From Escherichia coli (lineage in GTDB: Bacteria > Pseudomonadota > Gammaproteobacteria > Enterobacterales > Enterobacteriaceae): DNA of 64,000 bases. Where the stretch lies: assembly GCF_009931435.1 (NCBI RefSeq), contig NZ_CP043414.1; one strand, given 5' to 3'. Positions 8,299 to 35,600 of this stretch are shown piece by piece (position 1 is the first letter of the stretch; the number at the start of each line of letters is the position of its first letter). The translations under genes were made by a program, and so were the position numbers. The notes beneath the pieces are model-generated. The model was not told where the DNA came from, made no database searches, and worked only from the letters and a program-made list of their open reading frames with translations.

Positions 8299-9456
8299 TT
8301 ATTGTCCTGCGAGTTGCTGAAGGGCTGTGATGACGCGGTCGGCATCGGCGGTGGTCATATCCGGGAACAGCGGCAACGAACAGATGCGTTCGCTATTCCA
8401 TTCGGTATTCGGTAACGACAGCTCGGGAAAACGCTCGCGATAATATTTTTGTGTGTGAGCGGCGCGGAAATGTAACCCGGTACCAATGCCTCTTTCTTTT
8501 AACGCTTCCATCAACGCATCGCGACTGATACCACAACGTTGTTCATCGACACGAATAATAAACAGATGCCAGGCGTGAACGTGCGGCCAGGCGGGAAGGC
8601 TTAATGGCTCAAAGGGGAGAGCTGCCAGAGCTTGCTGATATTGCAGAGCAATTTCGCACCGACGGGTGTTGAGGTGCTCTAATTTGGCTAACTGGGTCAG
8701 GGCAATCGCGGCGTTAATATCGGTCAGATTATACTTATAGCCCGGCGTTAAGACTTCAGCTTGCGGTGCACGGCCCCAGGTTTGTCTGTCATATGCATCG
8801 ACACCCAGACCGTGAAATTTCAGCATCCGTAGCTGGCGGGCAAGGTTTTCATTATCAGTAACAATCAGGCCACCTTCCGCACAGGTAATATTTTTGATGG
8901 CGTGAAACGAAAAAATAGCGGTACCTTTTGCGCCAATATGTCGGCCTTTGTAATACGTACCGACGGCATGGGCAGCATCTTCGATAACTGCGATGCCGTA
9001 ACGTTCGCCAATGGCGCGAATGGCGTCAATATCTGCTGGCGCACCGGCATAATGCACCGGAATGATGGCTTTAGTGCGTGGCGTAATGGCTGCTTCGATC
9101 GTTTCAGGCGTGACCATCAGCGTATCGCGGTCGACATCCACCATTACCGGCGTTGCACCCAACAAGGAGATCATATTGAGGGTTGAAACCCAGGTCAGGG
9201 AAGGCGTAATCACTTCATCGCCCTTGCCAATTTCCAACGCCATTAGCGTGATATGCATTCCGGCGGTGGCTGAACTGACCGCGATGGCATGCTGATTTCC
9301 CGTCAACTGGCAAAAGGCTTGTTCAATCGCCTGATTCTTCGGACCGGTTGTGATCCAACCGGATTCGAGAACCTCTTTAACTGCTGCGAGTTCCTCCACG
9401 CCCATTGCTGGTCGCGAAAAAGGCAAAAATTCTGACATTGCTTTTCCTTCCGCCAT
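8299..9456 (-). CDS. arnB: UDP-4-amino-4-deoxy-L-arabinose--oxoglutarate aminotransferase
   Basis: DegT/ArnB-type PLP aminotransferase ORF. Start chosen at MAEGKAM (385 aa); the ATG at 9438 (MSEFLPF) has the better RBS (GGAAGGA) and may be the true start. Confidence 0.9.
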
Positions 9457-9536
9457 TGAATACCTGTCCACTTATATTTGCTATAAAGAGTGTTGTGTAT
9501 ATTTTGCCATTTGGAGCGAAATTCTAAGGATAGAAT

Positions 9537-9553
9537 ATTAACTTAACCTTAAG
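9537..9553 (-). promoter_or_regulatory. Putative PmrA (BasR) box upstream of arnB
   Basis: On the arn strand the sequence reads CTTAAG-GTTAA-GTTAAT, a hexamer direct repeat with 5-nt spacing about 80-95 nt upstream of the arnB start, resembling the PmrA half-site arrangement. Confidence 0.45.
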
Positions 9554-9745
9554 AAATTAATATTAGACGTAAATATTGAAATTTTTATATTTTTTCTTAT
9601 TTAGGCTTTGCATTTGGCAAAATTTTGAGGCATTTTGCCGGCATCGTAGGATTTTTAATATTACACCAACTGCTAATTATCGCCAGAAATGTCGCTCAAT
9701 TTCACGGTAATTGTCTGGTTGCGCTTGTCTATAGGTGGAGTTTAC

Positions 9746-10348
9746 GTGTTAGCTTTTTGCCGCTCTTCGTTGAAGTCAAAAAAATATTTCATCATTTTAC
9801 TGGCGCTCGCTGCAATTGCCGGACTGGGTACTCATGCCGCCTGGAGTAGCAATGGTTTGCCACGTATCGACAATAAAACACTGGCCAGACTGGCACAGCA
9901 GCACCCGGTTGTCGTTTTGTTTCGCCATGCTGAACGTTGCGATCGTTCAACCAATCAATGCTTGTCAGATAAAACAGGTATTACGGTCAAAGGTACCCAG
10001 GATGCCCGTGAACTGGGCAACGCTTTTAGCGCTGACATCCCTGATTTCGATCTTTATTCCAGTAATACCGTCCGGACCATTCAGTCGGCGACCTGGTTTT
10101 CAGCGGGGAAAAAGCTGACGGTAGATAAACGACTTCTTCAATGCGGTAATGAGATTTATAGTGCAATTAAGGACTTACAAAGCAAAGCACCTGATAAAAA
10201 TATCGTTATTTTTACCCATAATCATTGCCTGACATATATTGCTAAAGATAAGCGTGATGCGACATTTAAACCTGATTATCTGGATGGTTTAGTCATGCAT
10301 GTAGAAAAAGGCAAAGTTTATCTGGATGGGGAATTCGTTAACCACTAA
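9746..10348 (+). CDS. ais: lipopolysaccharide core heptose(II)-phosphate phosphatase Ais (200 aa)
   Basis: Histidine-phosphatase motif (LFRHAERC); start placed at an in-frame GTG ([13 protein letters not shown]...) to match the 200-aa protein with its signal peptide; the upstream ATG at 9689 is the alternative. Confidence 0.8.
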
Positions 10349-10386
10349 ATTTTCAATCTGACAGCCAGTAATGGCTGCCATCACTG

Positions 10387-10812
10387 TTACAGAAGACCTT
10401 TCAAACGTAACGTTTTTCGGGTGGCGACATTCAAATCATAATGCACCAGATCTTCAGGTTTTACCCACGCGTAGTCCTGAAACTCTTCGTTTATTTTCAC
10501 TTCTCGGTTGGCAGAAACGCAGTCAAAAATCAGGTAAATCATATAAATCTCTTCCTTGCGGCCATCTGCATACGTCTTGGTGCGAATATCATCGCTGAAG
10601 GTCCACGGCGTGATTTCTGTCAAAAGCAGCTGTTCTCCCAGTTCTTCGCGAATTTCGCGGCGTAGTGCCTCTTCAATTCGTTCACCAGGCTCCACGCCGC
10701 CACCCGAAAGCGCCCATTGACCGGGGAAAACGCCGCGATCGTCGGCCATTTTACACAGCAAATAAGCACCATCATTTTCAATCAAAGGGCATACAATAGT
10801 CCGTTGTCGCAC
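10387..10812 (-). CDS. nudI: Nudix hydrolase NudI (141 aa)
   Basis: Nudix box ([24 protein letters not shown]); start placed at an in-frame GTG preceded by AGGA, giving the 141-aa form. Confidence 0.85.
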
Positions 10813-11090
10813 AGGAGTATTCCTTATAAATAAAAAGAAACCATGAGAATACGGCAACTTAGAAATATGTGAAAGTGACAGTAATCTCTTTTGCGATGAT
10901 AACTGTACTTATTATTATTTTTGTGTGTATCGGTAAAGTGTGTTTATTTTTTCGGCGTTTAATTATTTAAGAAGTATTTAGTTACAATAAGTGACTAGAT
11001 CCCTTTTTTCGCTCATTGAATCCTCTGTGCCAGGCAGTACAATCCCGCAGCTTTGGGAATTTTGATTTATTGCTTGTGGGAGAGGGGAAA

Positions 11091-11633
11091 ATGAAAAAAA
11101 TTGCGCTAGCAGGTCTGGCCGGAATGCTGTTGGTTTCTGCATCGGTCAATGCAATGAGTATCAGCGGTCAGGCGGGTAAAGAATACACCAATATTGGTGT
11201 CGGTTTTGGTACGGAATCGACGGGCCTGGCGTTAAGCGGTAACTGGACACATAACGACGACGACGGTGACGTCGCGGGTGTGGGGCTGGGGTTGAATCTG
11301 CCTCTTGGTCCGTTAATGGCGACCGTTGGCGGTAAAGGTATTTATACCAATCCGAATGATGGTGATGAAGGCTATGCCGCTGCTGTTGGTGGTGGTTTGC
11401 AGTGGAAAATTGGCAACAGCTTCCGTTTGTTTGGCGAGTATTACTACTCTCCAGATTCGCTCTCCAGCGGTATTCAAAGTTATGAGGAAGCGAATGCGGG
11501 TGCGCGTTACACCATTATGCGTCCAGTCAGTATTGAGGCAGGTTATCGCTATCTGAATCTGTCGGGTAAAGATGGTAACCGCGACAACGCCGTGGCTGAC
11601 GGTCCATATGTTGGGGTTAACGCCAGTTTCTGA
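11091..11633 (+). CDS. yfaZ: outer-membrane-like protein YfaZ (180 aa)
   Basis: Internal ATG with RBS GGGGAAA; signal peptide MKKIALAGLAGMLLVSASVNA; C-terminal aromatic residue typical of beta-barrel proteins. Confidence 0.85.
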   Translation: MKKIALAGLAGMLLVSASVNAMSISGQAGKEYTNIGVGFGTESTGLALSGNWTHNDDDGDVAGVGLGLNLPLGPLMATVGGKGIYTNPNDGDEGYAAAVGGGLQWKIGNSFRLFGEYYYSPDSLSSGIQSYEEANAGARYTIMRPVSIEAGYRYLNLSGKDGNRDNAVADGPYVGVNASF

Positions 11634-24161: not shown

Positions 24162-25238
24162 ATGAAATTGACGCTGAAAAACCTTAGCATGGCGATCATG
24201 ATGAGTGGAATGATCATGGGAAGCAGTGCAATGGCGGCGGATAGCAACGAAAAAATAGTCATCGCCCATCGCGGTGCCAGTGGATATTTACCGGAGCATA
24301 CGCTGCCAGCAAAAGCGATGGCGTATGCGCAGGGGGCAGATTATCTGGAACAGGATTTGGTGATGACCAAAGACGACCATCTGGTTGTTCTGCATGACCA
24401 TTATCTCGATCGTGTTACTGATGTCGCCGATCGTTTCCCGGACAGGGCGCGTAAAGATGGCCGTTACTACGCGATAGATTTTACGCTGGATGAAATTAAG
24501 TCGCTGAAATTTACCGAAGGTTTCGATATTGAAAACGGTAAAAAAGTGCAGACTTATCCGGGGCGTTTCCCGATGGGTAAGTCTGACTTCCGGGTGCACA
24601 CCTTTGAAGAAGAGATTGAATTTGTTCAGGGGTTAAATCACTCTACCGGGAAAAATATCGGTATCTATCCAGAAATTAAAGCGCCGTGGTTCCATCATCA
24701 GGAAGGGAAGGATATTGCGGCAAAAACGCTGGAAGTGCTGAAGAAATATGGTTACACCGGCAAGGACGACAAAGTTTATTTGCAATGTTTTGATGTTGAT
24801 GAACTGAAGCGCATTAAAAATGAGCTGGAACCCAAAATGGGCATGGACCTCAATCTGGTACAGTTGATTGCCTATACCGACTGGAATGAAACGCAGCAGA
24901 AACAGCCGGACGGAAGCTGGGTTAATTACAGCTATGACTGGATGTTCAAGCCGGGCGCTATGAAACAGGTAGCGGAATATGCTGATGGCATTGGTCCGGA
25001 TTACCATATGGTGATTGAGGAGACATCGCAGCCGGGTAATATCAAGCTTACCGGAATGGTAAAAGATGCACAGCAGAATAAGCTGGTGGTGCATCCTTAT
25101 ACCGTGCGGGTCGACAAGCTGCCGGAATATGCCACCGATGTGAATCAGTTGTATGATGCTCTGTATAACAAAGCGGGTGTAAATGGGCTGTTTACTGATT
25201 TCCCTGATAAGGCAGTAAAATTCCTTAATAAAGAGTAA
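24162..25238 (+). CDS. glpQ: periplasmic glycerophosphodiester phosphodiesterase (358 aa)
   Basis: Start at MKLTLKNLSMAIMM with RBS GGAGG; signal peptide followed by HRGASGYLPEHT motif. Confidence 0.95.
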   Translation: MKLTLKNLSMAIMMSGMIMGSSAMAADSNEKIVIAHRGASGYLPEHTLPAKAMAYAQGADYLEQDLVMTKDDHLVVLHDHYLDRVTDVADRFPDRARKDGRYYAIDFTLDEIKSLKFTEGFDIENGKKVQTYPGRFPMGKSDFRVHTFEEEIEFVQGLNHSTGKNIGIYPEIKAPWFHHQEGKDIAAKTLEVLKKYGYTGKDDKVYLQCFDVDELKRIKNELEPKMGMDLNLVQLIAYTDWNETQQKQPDGSWVNYSYDWMFKPGAMKQVAEYADGIGPDYHMVIEETSQPGNIKLTGMVKDAQQNKLVVHPYTVRVDKLPEYATDVNQLYDALYNKAGVNGLFTDFPDKAVKFLNKE

Positions 25239-25248
25239 TGCTACTGCA

Positions 25249-25270
25249 GGATGGCGTTTATGCGCCATCC
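25249..25270 (+). terminator. Hairpin downstream of glpQ
   Basis: GGATGGCG-TTTAT-GCGCCATCC perfect stem-loop 11 nt after the glpQ stop; no strong T-tract. It lies at the boundary of the AT-rich islet. Confidence 0.45.
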
Positions 25271-25457
25271 TCTGCTAAAGCGAAATAATGCTACTACCGG
25301 TTATTCTTTTCATTAACGGGTGCATCCTGTAAAAAGATGCCAACATAATTTTCGTAAAACTCATTCGTTAAAAAAGCTAACACTGTGCATTGTTATTCTT
25401 TAAACAGTATGAATAGGTCTCAATAATAAATTGTAATGCAGTTTATACTGTAAAGTA

Positions 25458-26528
25458 TTATTCGAATTTCGGAAAGGTAAAGAAAATATTAATGTATCTT
25501 ATTAATTTATCATATTGTTCTTGGGTGAATGCTGTTTGCACACCTTCAGGGCAATATTTACCAGTAATAACCAGTTGCCCATTGCTGTGTTGTACCATTA
25601 AACCTTCTTTTTCCTTTGGATCTACAAAATTAGAATTATCAAATGTGAAGATATTTTTTTCCTGTTTTGAGTAAGTAAAGAAATCTCGTGTATAGCTGAA
25701 ACTATCATTTATTAATGGTGCTAACTTTTTGTCGGCGATATCGATAAGCTCACCACTTAATTTATTGATGTATTTAATTTGCTTCAATTTTTTCTGCGCT
25801 TGCACAATTTGCTTGTAGGTGTTTTCAATTTTTTTAGAAGAATTCTTAAATACATCATAGCGTTCCTCGGAGGATGTGTATTTGTACCATTCTGTATTTT
25901 TCTCAGAATGTTGTAGCAGGTCTGTATATTTTTTTTGATCGCTGTAAAGTTGACTTTTAATACTTTCCTCACTGCTGATCTTATAATGTTTATCAGAGTT
26001 GTTTGTTTTTGAAATGTCCTTTTCTGTCAGTGTCTGGTCCGTGTTGTGGGTATTTTCTTTTGCAACATGCTCATTGATGATGTTAATTGCAGTTTCATAT
26101 TCATTTAAATTTATTGTTCTTTGTGAAAGAAACCCTTCTTTGCTTTCGATACTCAAAACACCTTCGTTGTTTTCACCTCTGGTAAAGGTAAGGATATAGG
26201 GTTCATAATCTTCTGCAAATTCATTTTTATACGTTATGACATGCTCGACAAAATGTCTTATTGGTACGAAACCATAACTGTGAACGTCAATTTTTTTGGT
26301 CTTGACACTATCAATTTCATCTGAGGCTTTCGTGAAAAAAGCCAATAAATTAGCTATGTTGTCTGCTGAGGTTGATAACCCGAATCTACTTTGAGATATT
26401 TTTAGAAACTCATTGCAAAAAATCTCAAGTTTCGCGGTTTGTTGTGATTCTTTGTAAATTTCTGCTGTTTGCAATTTATTATTTTGTAAAATATTACAGC
26501 GAGATAAGTGAATAGATGTATTTGGCAT
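25458..26528 (-). CDS. Hypothetical protein, AT-rich orphan ORF (356 aa from the RBS-supported start; 368 aa from the first ATG)
   Basis: Long uninterrupted ORF with about 30% GC in a roughly 51% GC chromosome; AAGGA Shine-Dalgarno 7 nt upstream of the ATG at 26528; no signal peptide or TM helix evident; Lys/Glu/Ser/Asn-rich central segment; no family recognised. Confidence 0.6.
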   Translation of the reverse strand: MPNTSIHLSRCNILQNNKLQTAEIYKESQQTAKLEIFCNEFLKISQSRFGLSTSADNIANLLAFFTKASDEIDSVKTKKIDVHSYGFVPIRHFVEHVITYKNEFAEDYEPYILTFTRGENNEGVLSIESKEGFLSQRTINLNEYETAINIINEHVAKENTHNTDQTLTEKDISKTNNSDKHYKISSEESIKSQLYSDQKKYTDLLQHSEKNTEWYKYTSSEERYDVFKNSSKKIENTYKQIVQAQKKLKQIKYINKLSGELIDIADKKLAPLINDSFSYTRDFFTYSKQEKNIFTFDNSNFVDPKEKEGLMVQHSNGQLVITGKYCPEGVQTAFTQEQYDKLIRYINIFFTFPKFE

Positions 26529-26993
26529 AAATGATTCCTTGTAGTGTGAGTTAACAAGATACAATTTAATCTTTGCAGAATATATTCACTATCAAATTTA
26601 GCTCATTTTATTACGAAGACCTTTACGCATGTTAGAAAGTATCATTATTGTTAATAAATACGGTAATAAGTAACAAACAGATATTGATAACTTCCCTGAC
26701 AAGTTATTAGGTATCCCACTTGAAGATTGAGAATGGCTCCAGAGTAGACTGTGTACTGTTCGCCGGAGTGTCATTACTCTCAACAATCGGTTTTGACAGT
26801 GAGTCGGGCGCTTCATACCGGTTTCTACCTGGAGTCATTGTCACTTCCCTAATCTGGATAAATATTTATCGCTAATTCACAAAGTGGACCAAAATCAGGT
26901 GAAAACGAATTATTACGCATGGTAAAGACTACAGGCCAACTAAGTGTGGCGAATCAGACAATCTTACATTTGTCATCAATCTCATGTCTCACA

Positions 26994-27212
26994 TCAAATT
27001 TTTCCACTCACCACGAGTTGTTCCGTACACGTTTGTAGTAAAAACAGTGGACTGCCTTCTACCGGCTTTTCTTTAGCCAACAACGAAATCTGTCGATAGA
27101 AGGTTGGTTCGTGAGGAACGGAACACAATTCACCTGCAATGGTTTTCAGCGTTAACTCTGGTAATAAGGCGATGCCTAATCCCTGTCGAATAAAATTCAT
27201 CGCTGTATCCAT
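26994..27212 (-). pseudogene. yfaH: LysR-family regulator C-terminal remnant
   Basis: 72-aa ORF resembling the C-terminal effector domain end of LysR regulators (MDTAMNFIRQGLGIALLPE...); no room for the N-terminal HTH before inaA. Confidence 0.6.
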
Positions 27213-27415
27213 CTGATTAAATTCACATTTTATTTGCTGGGCGCACTATTAGTGGTAGTGGCTGGTGGAGTCTATGCGCTGCAAATGAAGGGTAAAAGCG
27301 GTGTCGCGCTAGTAGTGGCAAAAGAAATTCATTAATACGACACGTTTCATTAAGATTTTTCGCAGGTAACCACCTATAGTCATTGTCGTTAATAAAAAAT
27401 GACAGGCGATAGGGT

Positions 27416-28066
27416 ATGGCAGTTTCAGCAAAGCACGATGAATTTAATCACTGGTGGGCAACAGAGGGCGACTGGGTTGAAGAGCCTAACTATCGCCGTA
27501 ATGGTATGAGCGGGGTGCAATGCGTCGAGCGCAACGGCAAAAAGCTGTATGTGAAGCGCATGACGCATCATCTGTTTCATTCCGTACGTTATCCGTTCGG
27601 TCGACCGACGATTGTCCGTGAGGTTGCGGTAATTAAAGAGCTGGAACGGGCTGGTGTCATTGTGCCGAAAATCGTTTTTGGTGAAGCGGTGAAAATTGAG
27701 GGTGAATGGCGCGCGTTGCTGGTGACGGAAGATATGGCGGGGTTCATAAGTATTGCTGACTGGTATGCCCAGCATGCAGTAACACCTTATTCTGACGATG
27801 TTCGGCAAGCCATGTTGAAAGCTGTGGCGATGGCGTTTAAGAAAATGCATAGCGTTAATCGTCAGCATGGCTGTTGTTACGTTCGCCACATCTATGTGAA
27901 AACAGAAGGTATGGTAGAAGCTGGTTTTCTTGATCTGGAGAAAAGTCGTCGCCGCTTACGTCGGCATAAAGCGATTAATCATGATTTCCGCCAGCTGGAA
28001 AAATATCTGGAGCCGATCCCTAAAGCGGACTGGGAGCAGGTTAAAGCGTATTACTACGCCATGTAA
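27416..28066 (+). CDS. inaA: kinase-like acid-inducible protein InaA (216 aa)
   Basis: 216-aa ORF MAVSAKHDEFNHWWATEGDW...; conserved position next to yfaE. Confidence 0.9.
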   Translation: MAVSAKHDEFNHWWATEGDWVEEPNYRRNGMSGVQCVERNGKKLYVKRMTHHLFHSVRYPFGRPTIVREVAVIKELERAGVIVPKIVFGEAVKIEGEWRALLVTEDMAGFISIADWYAQHAVTPYSDDVRQAMLKAVAMAFKKMHSVNRQHGCCYVRHIYVKTEGMVEAGFLDLEKSRRRLRRHKAINHDFRQLEKYLEPIPKADWEQVKAYYYAM

Positions 28067-29649: not shown

Positions 29650-31935
29650 TCAGATTTTACATGCGCCGCTTTCGCAGCCATCGTCCTGGATTGACGGCAC
29701 CAGATCGTCTTGTGCGTCTTCAGCACCGTCACGGGTGTTCTGATAATACAGCGTTTTGACCCCGAATTTGTAGGCGGTGAGCAGGTCTTTCAGCAACTGC
29801 TGCATCGGCACTTTTCCTGACGGGAAGCGTGATGGATCGTAGTTGGTGTTAGCAGAGATCGACTGATCGATAAATTTCTGCATGATACCCACCAGTTGCA
29901 GGTAGCCATCGTTACCCGGCATTTCCCACAGCAGCTCATAGGCGTCGTGCAGATGCTCGTAGTCCGGCACCACCTGGCGCAGAATACCGTCTTTCGACGC
30001 TTTGATGCTGACGTAACCACGCGGCGGTTCAATACCGTTAGTAGCGTTAGAGATCTGCGAAGAAGTCTCTGACGGCATCAGAGCAGAAAGCGTGGAGTTA
30101 CGCAGGCCGTGCGTTTTGATTGACTCACGCAGTGCTTCCCAGTCGTAATGCAGCGGCTCATTAGCGATGGCATCCAGATCTTTCTTATAGGTATCGATCG
30201 GCAGGATCCCTTTCGCGTAAGTGGTTTCGTTAAACCACGGGCACGCGCCTTGCTCTTTCGCCAGCTCATTAGAGGCTTTCAGCAGGTAATACTGAATAGC
30301 TTCGAAGGTTTTATGCGTCAGGTTGTTGGCGCTGCCGTCGGAGTAGCGTTTACCGTGCTTCGCCAGGTAGTAAGCGAAGTTGATCACACCAATACCCAGC
30401 GTACGACGACCCATCGCTCCACGTTTGGCGGCCGGGATCGGGTAATCCTGATAATCCAGCAGCGCGTCGAGTGCGCGTACTGCCAGAATCGCCAGCTCTT
30501 CCAGTTCATCCAGGCTATTAATTGCGCCCAGGTTGAAAGCAGACAGCGTACACAGCGCGATTTCACCGTTCTCGTCGTTGACATCATTCAGCGGTTTGGT
30601 CGGCAGGGCGATTTCCAGGCACAGGTTAGACTGGCGCACTGGCGCGATGGCCGGATCAAACGGGCTATGGGTATTGCAGTGGTCAACGTTCTGAATATAG
30701 ATACGACCGGTAGACGCACGTTCCTGCATCATCAGCGAGAACAGCTCAACGGCTTTCACACGCTGCTTGCGGATGCTGTCGTCTTTCTCATATTTGGTGT
30801 ACAGGCGTTCAAACTCTTCCTGATCGGCGAAGAACGCGTCGTACAGCCCCGGTACGTCGGACGGGCTGAACAGGGTGATATCTTCACCTTTCAGCAGACG
30901 GGTATACATCAGTTTGTTGATTTGTACCCCGTAGTCCATATGACGCACGCGGTTGCCTTCAACCCCACGGTTGTTTTTCAACACCAGCAGGCTTTCCACT
31001 TCCAGATGCCACATAGGGTAGAACAGTGTTGCCGCACCGCCGCGCACACCGCCCTGAGAGCAGGATTTCACTGCCGTCTGGAAATGTTTGTAGAACGGAA
31101 TACAACCGGTGTGGAATGCTTCGCCACCGCGAATCGGGCTACCCAGCGCACGAATACGCCCGGCGTTAATGCCGATCCCGGCACGCTGGGAAACGTATTT
31201 AACAATCGCGCTGGAGGTGGCGTTGATGGAATCCAGGCTGTCGCCGCACTCGATCAGTACGCAGGAGCTGAACTGACGAGTCGGGGTACGCACGCCGGAC
31301 ATGATTGGCGTCGGCAGCGAAATTTTAAATGTGGAAACCGCGTCGTAAAAACGCTTCACGTATTGCAGGCGCGTTTCACGCGGGTAGTTCGAGAACAGGC
31401 ACGCAGCAACCAGAATATAGAGGAACTGGGCGCTCTCATAGATTTCGCCGGTCACGCGGTTCTGTACCAGATATTTGCCTTCCAGCTGCTTAACGGCAGC
31501 ATAAGAGAAGGTCATATCACGGTCGTGATCGATAAACGTGTCCATCTGCTTGAACTCTTCTTCCGTGTAGTCTTCCAGCAGATGATTATCGTATTTGCCC
31601 ATCTCGACCATTTTCACCACGTGGTCGTACAGCGCAGGCGGCTCAAACTGGCCATAGGCTTTTTTACGCAGGTGGAAAATTGCCAGGCGCGCGGCGAGAT
31701 ACTGATAATCCGGCGCATCACGGGAGATCAGGTCTGCGGCAGCCTTGATAATGGTTTCGTGGATGTCAGAGGTCTTGATACCGTCATAAAACTGAATGTG
31801 GGAGCGCAGCTCGACCTGGGAAATCGAAACGTTATGCAGTCCTTCTGCCGCCCAATCCAGAACGCGATGGATTTTGTCGAGATTGATGCGCTCTGTGCTA
31901 CCGTCGCGCTTTGTCACCAGCAGATTCTGATTCAT
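29650..31935 (-). CDS. nrdA: class Ia ribonucleotide reductase alpha subunit (761 aa)
   Basis: Start at [25 protein letters not shown] (ATP-cone); the longer track ORF is rejected. Confidence 0.95.
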
Positions 31936-32009
31936 GTATGTCGTACCTGTTTTTGGAATTCTTTCCGCAATAGTTTCATGCAGACTACCTGTAGTGAGGG
32001 AAGCTGCTA

Positions 32010-32100
32010 AGAACACTATATATAGGGGGTATGTTTGGGATTCACTGCAAGATAGTGTGAAAATGGCCCTCTTGCAAGTGCATAACTTTGTGGATAACTC
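32010..32100 (-). promoter_or_regulatory. nrdAB promoter region with a DnaA box and NrdR-box-like motifs
   Basis: Perfect TTATCCACA on the nrd strand at 32089-32097; ACACTATATATAG (32013-32025) and GATAGTGTGA (32051-32060) resemble NrdR boxes. Confidence 0.5.
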
Positions 32101-32624
32101 AGGAAGGAAAAAGTGGCTTCCGCGCACCTTAGGTCAGACAAGGTATCCGGGAAAGTCAATGGGAAGAGAAAAATTTGTTAAAAATAACTGTTCGGCGATT
32201 TCTTGAACGGCAGAATAGTATGGGTAAATTGATATAGATGGTTTATTAATCTTGTCGCTAATGATTGTCAAAATTGATCTAAGCACGAATCATCACATAA
32301 TCTGATGTATCAGTTGTGGTCAATATATAAGCGAATGTAAGCGATTGTTGAGTCGGAAATGGTTGTTTTCTATTCGGTTATTGTTAAATACCAAGCCAAT
32401 TTGTTACTTTTGCATATATTATAAGAATATTATTTATTACTTTAATTCAGTTTACATATAACCGATTTACCTTAAGGTTATTAATTTGAATTATGACACA
32501 CTGATATTATTCATCAAATAATAACAAAATAGTCATTGCACCGGGTTGTACAATTTACAAAAGAAATATACCCCATAGCGCATAATGCGATTAAATACGC
32601 CGTCTTATAGAAAATGATGGTTAG

Positions 32625-35600
32625 ATGAATATGCGGATTATCTTTCTACGCAAGGAGTATTTATCTTTACTCCCGTCAATGATTGCATCTCTTTTCTCTG
32701 TTAACAGTGTTGCGGAGGTTTTGGATTCATGCCAGGGATATGATATCAAAGCGAGTTGTCAGGCCAGCAGGCAAAGCCTTTCAGGCATTACGCAGGACTG
32801 GAGCATCGCCAATGGGCAATGGGTGATTTTTTCGGGTATGGCCAATAATGCTAGCGGTGGCGCCGTATTTTTGCAACAAGGAGCGGAGTTTTCTCTATCG
32901 CCAGAAAATGAAACTGGAATGACTCTGTTTGCCAATAATACTGTCTCAGGAGAATATAATAATGGCGGGGCAATATTTGCTAAAGAAAACTCAACGCTGA
33001 ATCTTACTGATGTTATTTTTTCCGGTAACGTCGCAGGCGGCTATGGTGGCGCAATCTATTCTTCTGGTACTAATGATACTGGTGCCGTCGATTTACGTGT
33101 CACTAACACCATGTTTATCAATAACATCGCTAATGATGGCAAAGGTGGCGCAATTTATACCATCAATAATGATGTCTATTTAAGTGATGATGTTTTTAAT
33201 AATAACCAGGCATATACATCAACAAGTTACAGTGATGGCGATGGTGGTGCAATCGATGTCACCGATAATAATAGCGATATCACGCATCCGTCAGGTTTCA
33301 CAATAATAAATAACACCGCATTTACAAATAACACTGCCGAAGGTTATGGCGGGGCAATTTATACCAATAGCGTGACGGCTCCCTATCTTATTGATATTTC
33401 TGTTGATGACAGCTACAGCCAGAACGGCGGTGTGTTAATCGATGAGAACAATTGCGCAGCAGGCTATGGGGATGGTCCTTCCACTGCGGCGGGCGGCTTT
33501 ATGTATCTCGGCTTAAGTGAAGTTACCTTTGATATTGCTGACGGAAAAACGCTGGTTATCGGCAATACAGAGAATGATGGAGCTGTTGACTCTATTGCTG
33601 GTACCGGGTTGATCACCAAAACAGGTTCCGGCGATCTGGTACTTAATGCAGATAACAATGACTTTACTGGTGAGATGCAGATTGAAAACGGTGAAGTTAC
33701 CCTGGGTCGCAGCAACTCCCTGATGAATGTCGGAGATAATCATTGCCAGGACGATCCGCAAGACTGCTACGGTCTGACGATAGGGAGTATTGATAAGTAC
33801 CAGAATCAGGCAGAGCTAAATGTTGGCTCCACCCAACAAACCTTTGTGCACGCATTGACGGGCTTTCAGAATGGCACTTTAAATATCGATGCTGGTGGCA
33901 ATGTTACTGTTAATCAAGGCAGTTTTGCTGGCACCATCGAAGGTGCTGGTCAGCTCACCATTGCGCAAAACGGCAGCTACGTGCTGGCAGGGGCGCAGTC
34001 GATGGCGCTAACTGGCGATATAGTCGTTGATGATGGCGCGGTGCTTACGCTAGAAGGCGACGCGGCAGATCTCGCCGCTCTCCAGGACGAGCCGCAGTCG
34101 ATCGTGTTAAACGGCGGTGTGCTCGATCTCTCTGATTTCTCCACCTGGCAGAGCGGCACATCATACAACGATGGCCTTGAAGTCAGCGGCAGCAGCGGAA
34201 CGGTTATCGGCAGTCAGGATGTGGTAGATCTTGCAGGCGGAAACGATATGCATATCGGCGGCGACGGGAAAGATGGCGTCTACGTGGTGGTCGATGCGGG
34301 TGATGGGCAGGTCAGCCTGGCAAATGACAATCAATACCTCGGCACAACGCAAATTGCTTCCGGTACGCTGGTGGTGAGTGACAACTCGCAGCTTGGAGAT
34401 ACCCACTATAACCGCCAGGTTATCTTTACCGATAATCAACAAGAAAGCGTGATGGAGATTACTGCCAATGTCGATACTCGCTCTACAACGGTTGAGCATG
34501 GGCGTGATATTGAAATGCGCGCCGACGGTGAAGTGGCAGTTGATGCGGGGGTAGACACGCAGTGGGGCGCACTGATGGCTGACAGCAGCGGGCAGCATCA
34601 GGATGAGGGTAGCACATTGACTAAAACGGGTGCTGGCACCCTGGAGCTGACCGCCAGCGGTACTACGCAGTCTGCGGTACGTGTTGAAGAAGGTACCCTG
34701 AAAGGCGATGTTGCGGATATTTTTCCTTATGCTTCGTCGCTGTGGATTGGTGACGGAGCAACGTTCGAGACTGGCGCAGATCAGGATATCCAGTCTATTG
34801 ATGCTACTTCCAGCGGCACTATCGACATCAGTGATGGCACCGTTTTGCGCCTGACGAGTCAGGATACTTCCGCCGCACTGGATGCCTCGCTGTTTAACGG
34901 CGACGGTACGTTGGTGAATGCCACCGATGGCGTGACGTTGACAGGCGAGCTTAATACTAACCTGGAAACTGACAGCCTGACCTATCTTTCCGATGTGACG
35001 GTTAATGGTGATCTAACCAATATGTCCGGTACAGTCAGTCTGCAAAATGGCGTCGCTGGCGATACGCTCACGGTAAACGGTGATTACACCGGCGGCGGTA
35101 CGTTGTTTCTCGACAGCGAATTAAACGGCGATGACTCGGTAAGCGACCAACTGGTGTTGAACGGCAATACCTCGGGTAACACGACCGTGGTGGTTAACCC
35201 CATTACCGGCACTGGTGAACCGACTTCTACAGGTATTAAAGTGGTTGATTTCACTGCTGATCCCACGCAATTTCAAAACAATGCGCTGTTTAGTCTTGCG
35301 GGCAGCGGCTACGTTAATATGGGAGCGTATGACTACACGCTGGTGGAAGATAACAACGACTGGTATCTGCGATCGCAAGAAGTCACTCCGACGCCGCCGC
35401 CCGATCCGGACCCGACTCCAGATCCTGATCCCACGCCGGATCCTGATCCAACACCCGACCCGGCTCCAGCCCCTACGCCTGCCTACCAGCCGGTGCTGAA
35501 CGCCAAAGTTGGTGGCTATCTCAATAACCTACGTGCGGCAAATCAGGCATTTGTGATGGAGCGACGCGATCACGCTGGTGGCGATGGTCAGACGCTGAAT

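What the first reader, a model, noticed from the sequence alone, without database searches (positions are those of the whole stretch)
25280..26990. AT-rich single-gene islet with an unrecognisable 356-aa ORF between glpQ and the yfaH remnant
About 1.7 kb at roughly 25-33% GC is embedded in roughly 51% GC core genome. It carries one long ORF (minus strand, 25458-26528) with a good Shine-Dalgarno (AAGGA-N7-ATG), no signal peptide or TM helices, a charged low-complexity Lys/Glu/Ser/Asn-rich middle segment flanked by two apparently globular regions, and no similarity to any family I recognise. There are no integrase, transposase or tRNA landmarks. To my recollection K-12 has only the yfaH fragment here, so this looks like a strain-variable, horizontally acquired cargo gene of the kind that often encodes single-protein phage-defence, abortive-infection, toxin or effector functions. 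It sits beside a decayed LysR gene, consistent with a recombination hot spot.
Basis: partly seen in the sequence, partly recalled or inferred. Interest (0 to 1): 0.8.

Follow-up and report, generated by a model that had tools for sequence, protein, structure and literature searches.

The report
Orphan gene islet beside glpQ
A real 1.7-kb AT-rich insert carries one intact gene, already catalogued as the uncharacterised E. coli O157 gene Z3496/ECs3123, found only in Escherichia; its reading frame is preserved while its amino-acid sequence drifts, and nothing ties it to phage defence.

Summary
Window 25272-26981 (1710 bp, 33% GC against 51%) is missing from K-12 and holds one intact 356-codon ORF (25458-26528, minus strand) with AAGGA-N7-ATG.

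It is not new as a sequence. It is the orthologue of O157:H7 Sakai ECs3123 (EDL933 Z3496 by position), annotated "hypothetical protein". It occurs at this one chromosomal site in 1052 of 5426 complete E. coli genomes.

It is a true orphan:
- No Pfam, NCBIfam, PADLOC or PDB match, and only one weak PHROG match of unknown function (E 0.05).
- A full HMMER scan of 1.84 billion representative proteins found only copies of the same Escherichia gene.
- No copy on a real phage or plasmid, and no tRNA, integrase or terminal repeats.

Two AlphaFold runs failed (pLDDT 41-43).

The evolutionary signal is mixed. Synonymous and missense changes occur in the neutral ratio (omega about 1, against 0.02-0.09 for glpQ). 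Nonsense changes and indels are depleted (0 observed against 5 expected, P about 0.007), and one frameshift was compensated. Some lineages carry IS1 insertions, a frameshift or deletions.

Best reading: a translated, weakly constrained, dispensable orphan accessory gene of unknown role. The defence, toxin or effector idea is not supported and not excluded.

The parts
25272..26981 (.). AT-rich islet: the segment present here and absent from K-12-type and LS45-type empty sites
   Evidence: blastn against K-12 locus L003 breaks at 25271/26982 with a 4-nt ambiguity. GC is 33.2% against 50.7% for the window.
25458..26528 (-). ORF356, an intact 356-codon gene. It is the orthologue of O157 Sakai ECs3123 / EDL933 Z3496 (hypothetical protein) and predicts a soluble protein of about 41.5 kDa, pI 6.2.
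   Evidence: ORF list and translation. Same locus and 87-91% amino-acid identity to the E. coli alleles. Composition.
26536..26540 (-). Shine-Dalgarno AAGGA, 7 nt upstream of the ATG at 26526-26528
   Evidence: Read directly from the sequence.
26529..26981 (-). 453-nt non-coding region upstream of ORF356, inside the islet. The proximal ~300 nt are somewhat better conserved than the ORF. It presumably holds a promoter or regulatory region, not demonstrated.
   Evidence: 17 changes per 300 nt proximal against 16 per 150 nt distal. No strong sigma-70 match on the minus strand. The 72-aa ORF at 26598-26816 (-) has a stop in L002.
25272..25457 (-). 186-nt 3' flank of ORF356 inside the islet. It contains an imperfect hairpin, ACCGGTTA(25296-25303)...TAACGGGT(25314-25321), which is a perfect 8-bp stem in most other alleles. 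This is a weak candidate terminator.
   Evidence: Sequence and allele alignment. The terminator scan found none.
25929..25936 (-). A8 homopolymer in the coding strand of the linker. Alleles carry A7 (O157/A16), A8 (most) or A9 (L005, a true frameshift).
   Evidence: Gap columns 593-594 of the ORF alignments.
25897..25901 (-). A5 homopolymer. It is A6 in the O157/A16 alleles, which restores the frame 35 nt after the A7 deletion (a compensated frameshift recoding 12 codons).
   Evidence: Gap column 629 and the translations.
25236..25295 (+). Left junction. The motif TAATGCTACT occurs at the glpQ stop codon (25236-25245) and again just inside the islet (25286-25295), matching 13 of 15 nt over 25236-25250 and 25286-25300. 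The two copies flank the glpQ terminator hairpin (25249-25270).
   Evidence: the repeat finder family D4 and the sequence. Conserved in O157. Significance uncertain.
26994..27236 (-). yfaH remnant, the C-terminal part of the LysR regulator that is intact in O157 as Z3495. It is the right-hand neighbour; its stop codon lies 12 nt from the islet edge.
   Evidence: PGAP annotation of L002 and L003 transferred by alignment. The Z3495 function is described in PMC10819331.
24162..25238 (+). glpQ, the left-hand core neighbour, convergent with ORF356
27416..28066 (+). inaA, the core gene to the right

Best explanation
Shown: window 25272-26981 is a real insertion/deletion polymorphism of foreign composition. 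It carries a single bona fide protein-coding gene, the orthologue of E. coli O157:H7 ECs3123/Z3496. The gene is an Escherichia-restricted orphan.

Inferred history: the islet entered once, by illegitimate recombination, between the glpQ terminator and the 3' end of the LysR gene yfaH/Z3495. It then moved between lineages by homologous recombination of the flanks, which produced mosaic alleles.

Inferred from substitution patterns: the gene is translated and kept open by selection. Nonsense mutations and indels are depleted, and one frameshift was compensated. Its amino-acid sequence is almost unconstrained (omega about 1). It is dispensable: about 80% of genomes lack it, and it is repeatedly hit by IS1, frameshift or deletion.

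Inferred, not shown: at 33% GC it is probably H-NS-silenced and expressed only conditionally. The product is a soluble cytoplasmic protein of about 41.5 kDa. It has a helical N-terminal part, a small beta-sheet-plus-helix module, a long low-complexity helical linker and a C-terminal beta/alpha module. This is more consistent with an adaptor, structural or conflict-type protein whose overall architecture matters than with a conserved enzyme.

It is not a member of any recognised defence, toxin, effector or mobile-element family.
For: Real gene:
- 356 open codons at 32% GC, with my estimate of about 1e-13 by chance from the composition.
- Codon-position base bias, chi2 = 45, P = 5e-8.
- A good SD.

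Orphan:
- No hit in PADLOC, NCBIfam, Pfam or PDB, and only a weak PHROG match at E 0.05.
- The word-indexed search of 5.8 billion proteins and the full HMMER scan of 1.84 billion representatives found only the same Escherichia gene.
- The one-genome-per-species scan found only one contig, a misbinned E. coli-like piece.

Fixed single locus: 1052 of 5426 complete genomes, all chromosomal, one place each apart from split matches. Nothing in phages or IMG/VR, and the only plasmid-collection hit is a 4.9-Mb record that must be a chromosome.

Reading frame kept open (8 alleles sampled without regard to intactness):
- 0 nonsense changes against 5.0 expected from the observed 12-class mutation spectrum, P = 0.007.
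- 3 indel events, all in two poly-A tracts, against about 7.8 expected from the indel:substitution ratio of the islet's own non-coding flanks, P about 0.05. With 13 alleles the expectation is about 9.5, P about 0.015.
- The O157/A16 allele carries a -1/+1 pair that restores the frame after 12 codons.
- Intact ORFs persist in alleles up to 8% divergent.

Weak constraint:
- Synonymous:missense is 24:66 against a neutral 23.7:62.7, and 36:97 against 34:95 with 12 alleles.
- Pairwise omega is 0.5-1.7, against 0.02-0.09 for adjacent glpQ.

Spread by recombination:
- ORF dS is 0.06-0.10 against glpQ dS of 0.25-0.29 for the same genome pairs (NG86).
- L002 shares the window's ORF (99.2%) and inaA (99.4%), but its glpQ differs at dS 0.25.
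- In segment 161-196 both S and N changes are about four-fold elevated.

Dispensable: IS1 insertions in L010 and L011, a true frameshift in L005, and whole-islet absence in K-12, LS45 and EcN.
Against: - Omega near 1, and a substitution density equal to that of the flanking non-coding DNA (0.13 per site in the ORF against 0.12 upstream and 0.18 downstream), are what a non-functional sequence would show.
- The frame-retention statistics rest on few alleles. P is 0.007 and about 0.05 in the unbiased set. The stronger values include four alleles that I picked through intact protein entries, which is an ascertainment bias.
- Missense changes are only marginally more conservative than random (P = 0.06-0.23).
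- I have no expression, H-NS or proteomic data. No paper in the searched library mentions ECs3123, and none of those returned for Z3494-Z3497 mentions Z3496.
- The structural sketch comes from AlphaFold models with pLDDT 41-43, so it is no more than a secondary-structure guess.
Confidence: 0.55

Rival explanations
1. Drifting relic. The gene was functional in its donor but has no function in Escherichia. It is silenced, evolves neutrally and is on its way to loss. The intact frame in most alleles is chance plus rapid deletion of broken copies.
For: - Omega about 1 by every corrected method.
- The ORF diverges as fast as its non-coding flanks.
- Outside one segment, changes are spread evenly along the gene.
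- Absent from about 80% of genomes.
- IS1 insertions, a frameshift and deletions occur in independent lineages.
- No homologue anywhere else.
Against: - Nonsense changes: 0 observed against 5.0 expected, P = 0.007, in the unbiased sample.
- Indels are depleted relative to the flanks and confined to homopolymers.
- A frameshift was compensated 35 nt downstream in the O157 lineage.
- Block 81-120 has fewer than half the changes per codon of the rest.
Confidence: 0.25
2. One reading: a single-protein anti-phage defence or abortive-infection gene, or another inter-genomic conflict factor. Diversifying selection on some sites would cancel purifying selection on others, giving omega about 1 with a preserved frame.
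For: - Patchy presence/absence, low GC and a single-gene islet.
- Frame retention together with fast protein evolution.
- Deeply divergent, mosaic alleles.
Against: - No PADLOC model hit at E <= 1.
- No homologue in any other genus among about 15 billion proteins, whereas known defence families are usually widely scattered (general knowledge).
- Not on a phage, true plasmid or IMG/VR contig.
- No integrase or tRNA.
- The site carries only this cargo or none in every configuration seen.
- In the variable segment synonymous changes are elevated as well. That points to imported divergence, not positive selection.
Confidence: 0.12
3. A host-interaction protein, such as a type III-secreted effector or colonisation factor. 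This is suggested by a polar Ser/Thr/Asn/Ile-rich N-terminus without acidic residues before E23, and by the Nle-like AT-rich, Lys/Glu/Asn/Ile composition.
For: - N-terminal sequence and composition.
- Presence in O157:H7 next to Z3495, a LysR regulator reported to activate LEE genes (PMC10819331).
Against: - Also present in avian, canine, otter, goat and river isolates that are not O157. I did not check these for the LEE.
- Not in a prophage or pathogenicity island.
- The OI-97 paper does not mention Z3496.
- The resemblance is from my memory of effector composition and was not tested.
Confidence: 0.05
4. A cryptic metal-dependent hydrolase. The best-conserved block (residues 81-120) contains H92-F-V-E-H96, an HxxEH motif like that of M16 'inverzincin' peptidases, lying in a predicted helix.
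For: - The motif is read from the sequence.
- The block has the lowest substitution density in the gene: 5 changes in 40 codons, 2 N and 3 S.
- A helix is predicted at 90-104.
Against: - No Pfam hit to Peptidase_M16 or any other family at E <= 10, and no PDB sequence hit.
- The protein is too short for the two-domain M16 architecture (general knowledge).
- The chance of the motif given this composition is roughly 1-2%, but many motifs could have been noticed.
- The structure model is unreliable (pLDDT about 40-55 here).
Confidence: 0.03

Closest known systems
E. coli O157:H7 Sakai ECs3123 (NP_311150.1; RefSeq WP_001301786.1), EDL933 Z3496 by position; annotated 'hypothetical protein'
   Same: - Same gene at the same site, between glpQ (Z3497) and the LysR gene (Z3495).
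- 356 aa, 87% amino-acid and 95% nucleotide identity.
- Same junctions.
   Different: - The O157 allele has a compensated -1/+1 frameshift that recodes 12 linker codons.
- It sits next to an intact LysR-MFS pair (OI-97), whereas the window has the K-12-type deletion of that pair.
- No function has been reported for either allele.
Lineage-restricted AT-rich 'ORFans' of E. coli (the class described by Daubin and Ochman, 2004; cited from my own knowledge)
   Same: - No homologue outside a narrow clade.
- Low GC.
- Much faster protein evolution than core genes.
- Patchy distribution.
   Different: - At 356 aa it is long for an ORFan.
- No link to any phage was found.
- Omega is about 1 rather than merely elevated, yet the frame is preserved.
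Single-gene anti-phage defence or abortive-infection genes found in variable E. coli islets (for example the PD-T4, PD-T7 and PD-Lambda genes, which I recall PADLOC including)
   Same: A small, AT-rich, strain-variable, stand-alone gene encoding a cytoplasmic protein.
   Different: - No model match.
- No mobile-element context or alternative cargos at the site.
- Confined to one genus.
- Function untested.
M16 inverzincin peptidases (HxxEH zinc site)
   Same: Only the pentapeptide HFVEH (residues 92-96) in a predicted helix.
   Different: - No profile match.
- Too short for the two-domain fold.
- No identifiable downstream Glu ligand region.

Membership tests
Known anti-phage defence systems (PADLOC-DB v2.0.0) | Protein matches a defence-system HMM | tested here: not met
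   0 families at E <= 1.
Known anti-phage defence systems | Located in a defence island, mobile element or hot spot with alternative cargos | tested here: not met
   The flanks are core genes glpQ and inaA. No integrase, tRNA or IS in the window copy. All five locus configurations seen contain this cargo or none. No genuine phage, plasmid or IMG/VR copy.
Known anti-phage defence systems | Protects against phage when expressed | not testable with these tools
   Needs cloning into K-12 and a phage challenge.
Toxin-antitoxin or two-gene abortive-infection module | A conserved small partner ORF next to the gene | tested here: not met
   The only upstream ORF (72 aa, 26598-26816, minus strand) has a stop in L002 and only non-synonymous variation. 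The plus-strand 51-aa ORF is also broken or extended in other alleles.
Genomic island or integrative element | Integrase, tRNA target, terminal direct or inverted repeats, target-site duplication | tested here: not met
   No tRNA. No integrase ORF. The junctions show only 2-6 nt of microhomology, plus a 10-nt motif repeated 50 nt apart at one end.
E. coli lineage-restricted ORFan class | No detectable homologue outside the genus | tested here: met
   Every hit is the same Escherichia gene at 65% identity or more. The per-species genome scan found only a misbinned E. coli-like contig.
E. coli lineage-restricted ORFan class | Low GC and a protein evolutionary rate far above that of core genes | tested here: met
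   32-33% GC against 51%. Omega 0.5-1.7 against 0.02-0.09 for glpQ.
Orthologue of O157 ECs3123/Z3496 | Same flanking genes, same junctions, full-length high identity | tested here: met
   The Z-number is assigned by position, from Z3497 = glpQ and Z3495 = LysR.
M16 inverzincin metallopeptidase | HxxEH motif | tested here: met
   HFVEH at residues 92-96. It is invariant in 12 alleles, but so are most residues.
M16 inverzincin metallopeptidase | Profile match to Peptidase_M16 and the two-domain fold | tested here: not met
   No Pfam hit at E <= 10 other than a spurious BLOC1S3 match. No PDB sequence hit. Foldseek on the low-confidence model gave no match with E <= 0.001.
Type III secreted effector | T3SS-dependent secretion and co-occurrence with a functional T3SS | not testable with these tools
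   Only the N-terminal composition is suggestive. The gene also occurs in many non-O157 isolates, which I did not check for the LEE.

The most novel reading that the evidence does not exclude
ORF356/ECs3123 is the founding member of a new, Escherichia-specific protein family acting in an inter-genomic conflict (phage, plasmid or competitor). It would be kept as a presence/absence and allelic polymorphism: the frame preserved, the sequence diversifying, and segments exchanged between deeply divergent alleles. Slippage-prone poly-A tracts in the linker would act as an on/off switch.
Probability: 0.15. Interest if true: 0.7.

Novelty: already known. Interest (0 to 1): 0.3.

Why it matters
As a sequence it is already in the databases: O157 ECs3123/Z3496 and hundreds of identical 'hypothetical protein' entries. 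It also fits the well-described class of AT-rich lineage-restricted orphans, so finding it is not a discovery.

What is mildly interesting is the evolutionary signature. This is a 356-codon gene with no relative among about 15 billion proteins. Its reading frame is protected from nonsense mutations and indels, and was even repaired by a compensating frameshift, yet its missense changes accumulate at the neutral rate. If this holds in a large sample, the gene is a clean, experimentally tractable case for asking what selection sees in orphan genes. K-12 is a natural null, and O157 and this strain carry different alleles.

It also sits directly beside Z3495, a LysR regulator recently reported to control LEE virulence genes, and no study in the searched library has examined it.

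Tried and rejected
1. Family searches. Pfam, PADLOC, NCBIfam, PHROGs and PDB sequences, by single sequence and by profile, gave nothing usable. The only items were a PHROG of unknown function (E 0.05), BLOC1S3 (E 0.51) and T4 gp53 (E 0.46). All fall in the low-complexity linker, and I reject them as compositional.

2. Remote homologues. The word-indexed search and the full HMMER scan returned only the same gene. A profile search would add little with an alignment at 94% mean column identity.

3. Structure. AlphaFold2 on the full length with 12 alleles gave pLDDT 42.8. On residues 1-170 it gave pLDDT 41.3.

4. Internal duplication of the two beta/alpha modules. BLASTP gave E = 6.2, so this is not supported.

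5. Mobile origin. tblastn against phages found nothing. Against plasmids it found only a mislabelled chromosome. IMG/VR found nothing.

6. RNA elements. No Rfam hit at E <= 1. No terminator-like site, and fewer promoter-like sites than in shuffles.

7. H-NS motif TCGATAAATT. One 1-mismatch site in the islet, 9 in the window against 4.8 expected. Uninformative, so H-NS silencing remains an inference from AT content.

8. Literature. ECs3123, NP_311150 and OI-98 gave no relevant paper, and none of the papers returned for Z3494-Z3497 mentions Z3496. The OI-97 paper and its supplements do not mention Z3496.

9. Uncorrected NG86 dN/dS (0.4-0.75) at first suggested weak purifying selection. After correcting for transition bias and codon frequencies this disappears.

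10. PGAP 'frameshifted' flags at first suggested widespread pseudogenisation. This was rejected, because those copies are intact.

Full report
**1. The observation**

The composition profile drops from about 50% GC to 30-34% between roughly 25150 and 26800. The 1710-bp stretch 25272-26981 has 33.2% GC against a window mean of 50.7%. It overlaps almost exactly the lowest-GC 1.7 kb of the whole 64-kb window, 4.4 sd below the mean.

The ORF list shows one long frame, 25458-26564 from TTG or 25458-26528 from ATG (356 codons) on the minus strand. AAGGA lies 7 nt before the ATG.

With the ORF's base composition I estimate stop codons at about 0.078 per codon. An open stretch of 356 codons is then not a chance event, about 1e-13 by my arithmetic. 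Base composition also differs strongly by codon position (chi2 = 45, P = 5e-8).

There is no tRNA, no Rfam match and no integrase or transposase among the neighbouring ORFs. The neighbours are glpT, glpQ, a C-terminal LysR (yfaH) remnant, inaA, yfaE and nrdB.

**2. What the locus looks like across E. coli**

megablast of the glpQ-inaA interval against 5426 complete E. coli genomes finds the whole interval in 1044 genomes. In most of the rest it finds only the right-hand part. The ORF alone is found in 1052 genomes, always on the chromosome, one place each apart from split matches.

K-12 lacks window 25272-26981. The break follows the glpQ terminator hairpin (...GCGCCATCC|) and lies 12 nt beyond the LysR stop codon.

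I saw five configurations:

| Configuration | Example |
|---|---|
| islet + intact LysR + MFS | O157:H7, A16 |
| islet + LysR remnant | the window, L002, L005, L006 |
| no islet + intact LysR + MFS | LS45 |
| no islet + LysR remnant | K-12 |
| everything deleted | EcN |

The empty site is identical in K-12 and LS45. The junctions have no target-site duplication or inverted repeats. They show only short microhomology, and a 10-nt motif (TAATGCTACT) at the glpQ stop that recurs 50 nt further on, just inside the islet.

The one-genome-per-species scan returned a single locus, a 3.5-kb contig binned as Collinsella. It carries the E. coli LysR gene and an ORF identical to that of L007, so it is evidently misbinned. 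The species representatives scanned therefore lack the gene.

I infer a single insertion within Escherichia, followed by spread and loss. I could not polarise this with outgroup sequences.

**3. Identity of the gene**

In O157 Sakai the gene is ECs3123 (NP_311150.1, 'hypothetical protein'), between yfaH/ECs3122 and glpQ/ECs3124. In EDL933, Z3497 is glpQ (PMC4041753). Z3495 and Z3494 are the LysR regulator and MFS transporter of O island 97 (PMC10819331). By position the ORF is therefore Z3496.

The exact window protein is already in NCBI and UniRef as an E. coli hypothetical protein. No paper in the searched library mentions ECs3123, and none of those returned for Z3494-Z3497 mentions Z3496. 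The OI-97 paper and its supplements do not mention Z3496 either.

**4. No recognisable family**

- PADLOC and NCBIfam gave nothing. PHROGs gave one family of unknown function at E 0.05.
- Pfam gave nothing below E 0.5.
- PDB sequences gave nothing, by phmmer or by profile.
- The word-indexed search of 5.8 billion clusters returned 23 hits, all the same Escherichia gene or fragments of it at 86-91% identity.
- The full HMMER scan of 1.84 billion representatives returned 12, again only fragments of the same gene at 70% identity or more.
- tblastn found no phage copy. The only 'plasmid' copy is on a 4.9-Mb record that must be a chromosome. IMG/VR gave nothing.

AlphaFold2 with the 12 available alleles gave pLDDT 42.8, and the N-terminal 170 residues alone gave 41.3.

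Only a rough secondary-structure outline can be offered:

| Residues (approx.) | Predicted element |
|---|---|
| up to 105 | helices |
| 112-140 | three strands |
| 141-160 | a helix |
| 178-269 | long helices through the Lys/Glu/Ser/Asn-rich segment |
| 287-333 | strands |
| 336-351 | a final helix |

**5. Evolution**

PGAP flags many copies as 'frameshifted'. Translation shows that L002 and L006-L009 are intact 356-codon ORFs. The flag arises because the O157/A16-type allele differs from them by a -1 change in an A8 tract and a +1 change in an A5 tract 35 nt downstream. This compensated frameshift recodes 12 codons.

Real disruptions are an A9 frameshift in L005, an IS1 insertion in L010 and an IS1-associated deletion in L011. 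About a fifth of the evenly sampled rows carry the IS1.

*Missense changes look neutral.*
- Uncorrected NG86 gave dN/dS of 0.4-0.75.
- Once the transition bias is taken into account, the counts match neutrality: 24 synonymous to 66 missense, against 23.7 to 62.7 expected.
- With 12 alleles the counts are 36:97 against 34:95.
- ML, YN00 and LWL85 give pairwise omega of 0.5-1.7, against 0.02-0.09 for the adjacent glpQ in the same genomes.
- The ORF's density of variable sites (0.13 per site) is about that of the islet's own non-coding flanks (0.12 upstream, 0.18 downstream).
- Missense changes are only marginally more conservative than random (P = 0.06-0.23).

*Frame-breaking changes are depleted.*
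- In the 8 alleles sampled without regard to intactness, 5.0 nonsense substitutions are expected from the observed 12-class spectrum and none is seen (P = 0.007).
- The flanks show 5 indel events per 59 substitutions. This predicts about 7.8 in the ORF, where 3 occur, all in the two poly-A tracts, two of them compensating each other (P about 0.05).
- Adding four more divergent alleles (L016-L019, up to 8% nucleotide divergence, all intact) lowers these to P = 0.0003 and P about 0.015. Those four were found through intact protein entries, so they are biased towards intactness.

*Local features.*
- Residues 161-196 carry about four times more changes per codon than the rest, with synonymous changes raised as well (32 N: 11 S). 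This looks like segments imported from more divergent alleles, not positive selection.
- Residues 81-120 are the least variable (5 changes in 40 codons) and contain HFVEH.

*Recombination.*
- The ORF's dS between the window and E. coli alleles (0.06-0.10 by NG86) is far below that of glpQ (0.25-0.29).
- L002 shares the window's ORF and inaA alleles (99.2% and 99.4%) but has a glpQ that differs at dS 0.25.
- The islet has therefore moved between backgrounds by homologous recombination.

**6. Interpretation**

The gene is a genuine coding sequence and a true orphan.

The combination of neutral missense evolution with depletion of nonsense mutations and indels, plus one repaired frameshift, is best explained by a translated protein. 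Its full length matters, but its exact sequence mostly does not. The gene is dispensable enough to be lost often. I give this 0.55.

A pure relic model (0.25) explains omega about 1 and the losses but not the frame retention. The defence or abortive-infection idea (0.12) has no positive evidence. Against it stand the absence of any homologue outside one genus, the absence of any mobile context and a site that holds only one kind of cargo. The effector (0.05) and HxxEH-hydrolase (0.03) ideas rest on composition and on a pentapeptide.

H-NS silencing is inferred only from AT content and general knowledge. The motif scan was uninformative.

**7. Comparison, novelty and verdict**

The closest known entity is the same gene in O157 (ECs3123/Z3496), which is uncharacterised. 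The closest known kind is the AT-rich lineage-restricted ORFan. Membership in defence systems, TA modules, integrative islands and M16 peptidases was tested where possible and not met.

The feature is therefore already known as a sequence and ordinary as a class. It has one modestly interesting property, frame preservation without sequence constraint, and a convenient experimental set-up: a natural null in K-12 and two distinct alleles. Interest 0.3.

The window itself is about 95-97% identical to O157 Sakai over 43 collinear kb, and 90-95% identical to most complete E. coli genomes over 20 kb of this region. It therefore comes from a divergent lineage or a highly polymorphic region. This does not affect the conclusions.

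Noticed in passing
L002:3220-4290, L006-L009:2501-3571 (orthologues of window 25458-26528): RefSeq/PGAP marks these copies 'frameshifted' pseudogenes, although each is an intact 356-codon ORF. The flag arises because the O157-type allele differs from them by a compensated frameshift.
   Followed up: yes
window 25929-25936 and 25897-25901 (minus strand); L001, L004, L005: Two poly-A tracts in the linker account for every indel seen in the ORF: A7+A6 in O157/A16 (frame restored after 12 codons), A8+A5 in most alleles, and A9 in L005 (broken). This could be slippage-driven on/off variation.
   Followed up: partly
L010:2810-3568 and L011:2702-3459: Two independent IS1 events hit the gene. One is a simple insertion near ORF nt 760-774, common in a group of ~4.8-Mb genomes. 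The other is an IS1-associated deletion running from the ORF (about nt 871 of 1071) into the MFS gene.
   Followed up: partly
window 24162-25238 versus 25458-28066, compared with L002: There is a recombination breakpoint between glpQ and the islet. L002 is 99.2% (ORF) and 99.4% (inaA) identical to the window, but its glpQ differs at dS = 0.25. glpQ dS among ordinary E. coli strains here reaches 0.2, so this neighbourhood is unusually polymorphic.
   Followed up: partly
ORF356 residues 161-196 (window about 25941-26048); L016, L017, L019: A hypervariable linker segment has about 1.2 changes per codon against 0.3 elsewhere, with synonymous changes equally elevated. This implies segments imported from more divergent alleles that have not been sampled.
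   Followed up: partly
ORF356 residues 92-96 (window 26241-26255, minus strand): HFVEH, an HxxEH 'inverzincin'-like motif, sits inside the least variable block of the protein (residues 81-120). There is no profile support for a peptidase.
   Followed up: partly
window 25236-25245 and 25286-25295: The 10-nt motif TAATGCTACT at the glpQ stop codon is repeated just inside the islet's left end (13 of 15 nt over 25236-25250 and 25286-25300). This may be a trace of how the islet was joined to the site, or chance.
   Followed up: partly
window 26529-26830: The 300 nt immediately upstream of the ORF, including a GC-richer patch at about 26700-26850, vary less than the ORF itself (17 changes per 300 nt). 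No Rfam family or convincing promoter was found. The 72-aa ORF there is broken in L002.
   Followed up: partly
L012 (JAIJJM010000334.1, 3474 bp): A contig binned as 'Collinsella sp.' MAG carries the E. coli LysR gene and an ORF356 copy identical to that of E. coli L007. This is almost certainly misbinned E. coli DNA.
   Followed up: partly
PLSDB record NZ_CP141089.1 (hit H83): A 4.9-Mb E. coli record in the plasmid collection carries the gene. Its size shows it is a chromosome filed as a plasmid.
   Followed up: no
window 27229-27241; L001:5002-6868: The window shares the K-12-type deletion of about 1.9 kb that removes most of the LysR gene and the MFS gene (O island 97 of O157), with a 13-nt overlap at the junction. 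In O157 that LysR (Z3495) is reported to activate LEE genes via rcsF (PMC10819331).
   Followed up: partly
L014:3991-4890: In strain LS45, which has no islet, the LysR gene is 299 codons rather than 292. A 1-nt deletion in the A/T run near its 3' end extends the frame towards glpQ.
   Followed up: no
window 1-42721 versus L015 (O157 Sakai): The window is collinear with Sakai but only 94.8-96.8% identical over 43 kb. It is 90-95% identical to 5314 complete E. coli genomes over 20 kb. This suggests a divergent Escherichia lineage, or a very polymorphic region. Sakai's IS629 insertion in rhmT is absent here.
   Followed up: partly
window 31912-33621 and 9417-11126: These are the next lowest-GC stretches of the window (39.8% and 41.2%). 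By alignment to Sakai they correspond to the nrdA-yfaL intergenic region plus the 5' (N-terminal) part of yfaL, and to the ais/nudI/yfaZ area.
   Followed up: no
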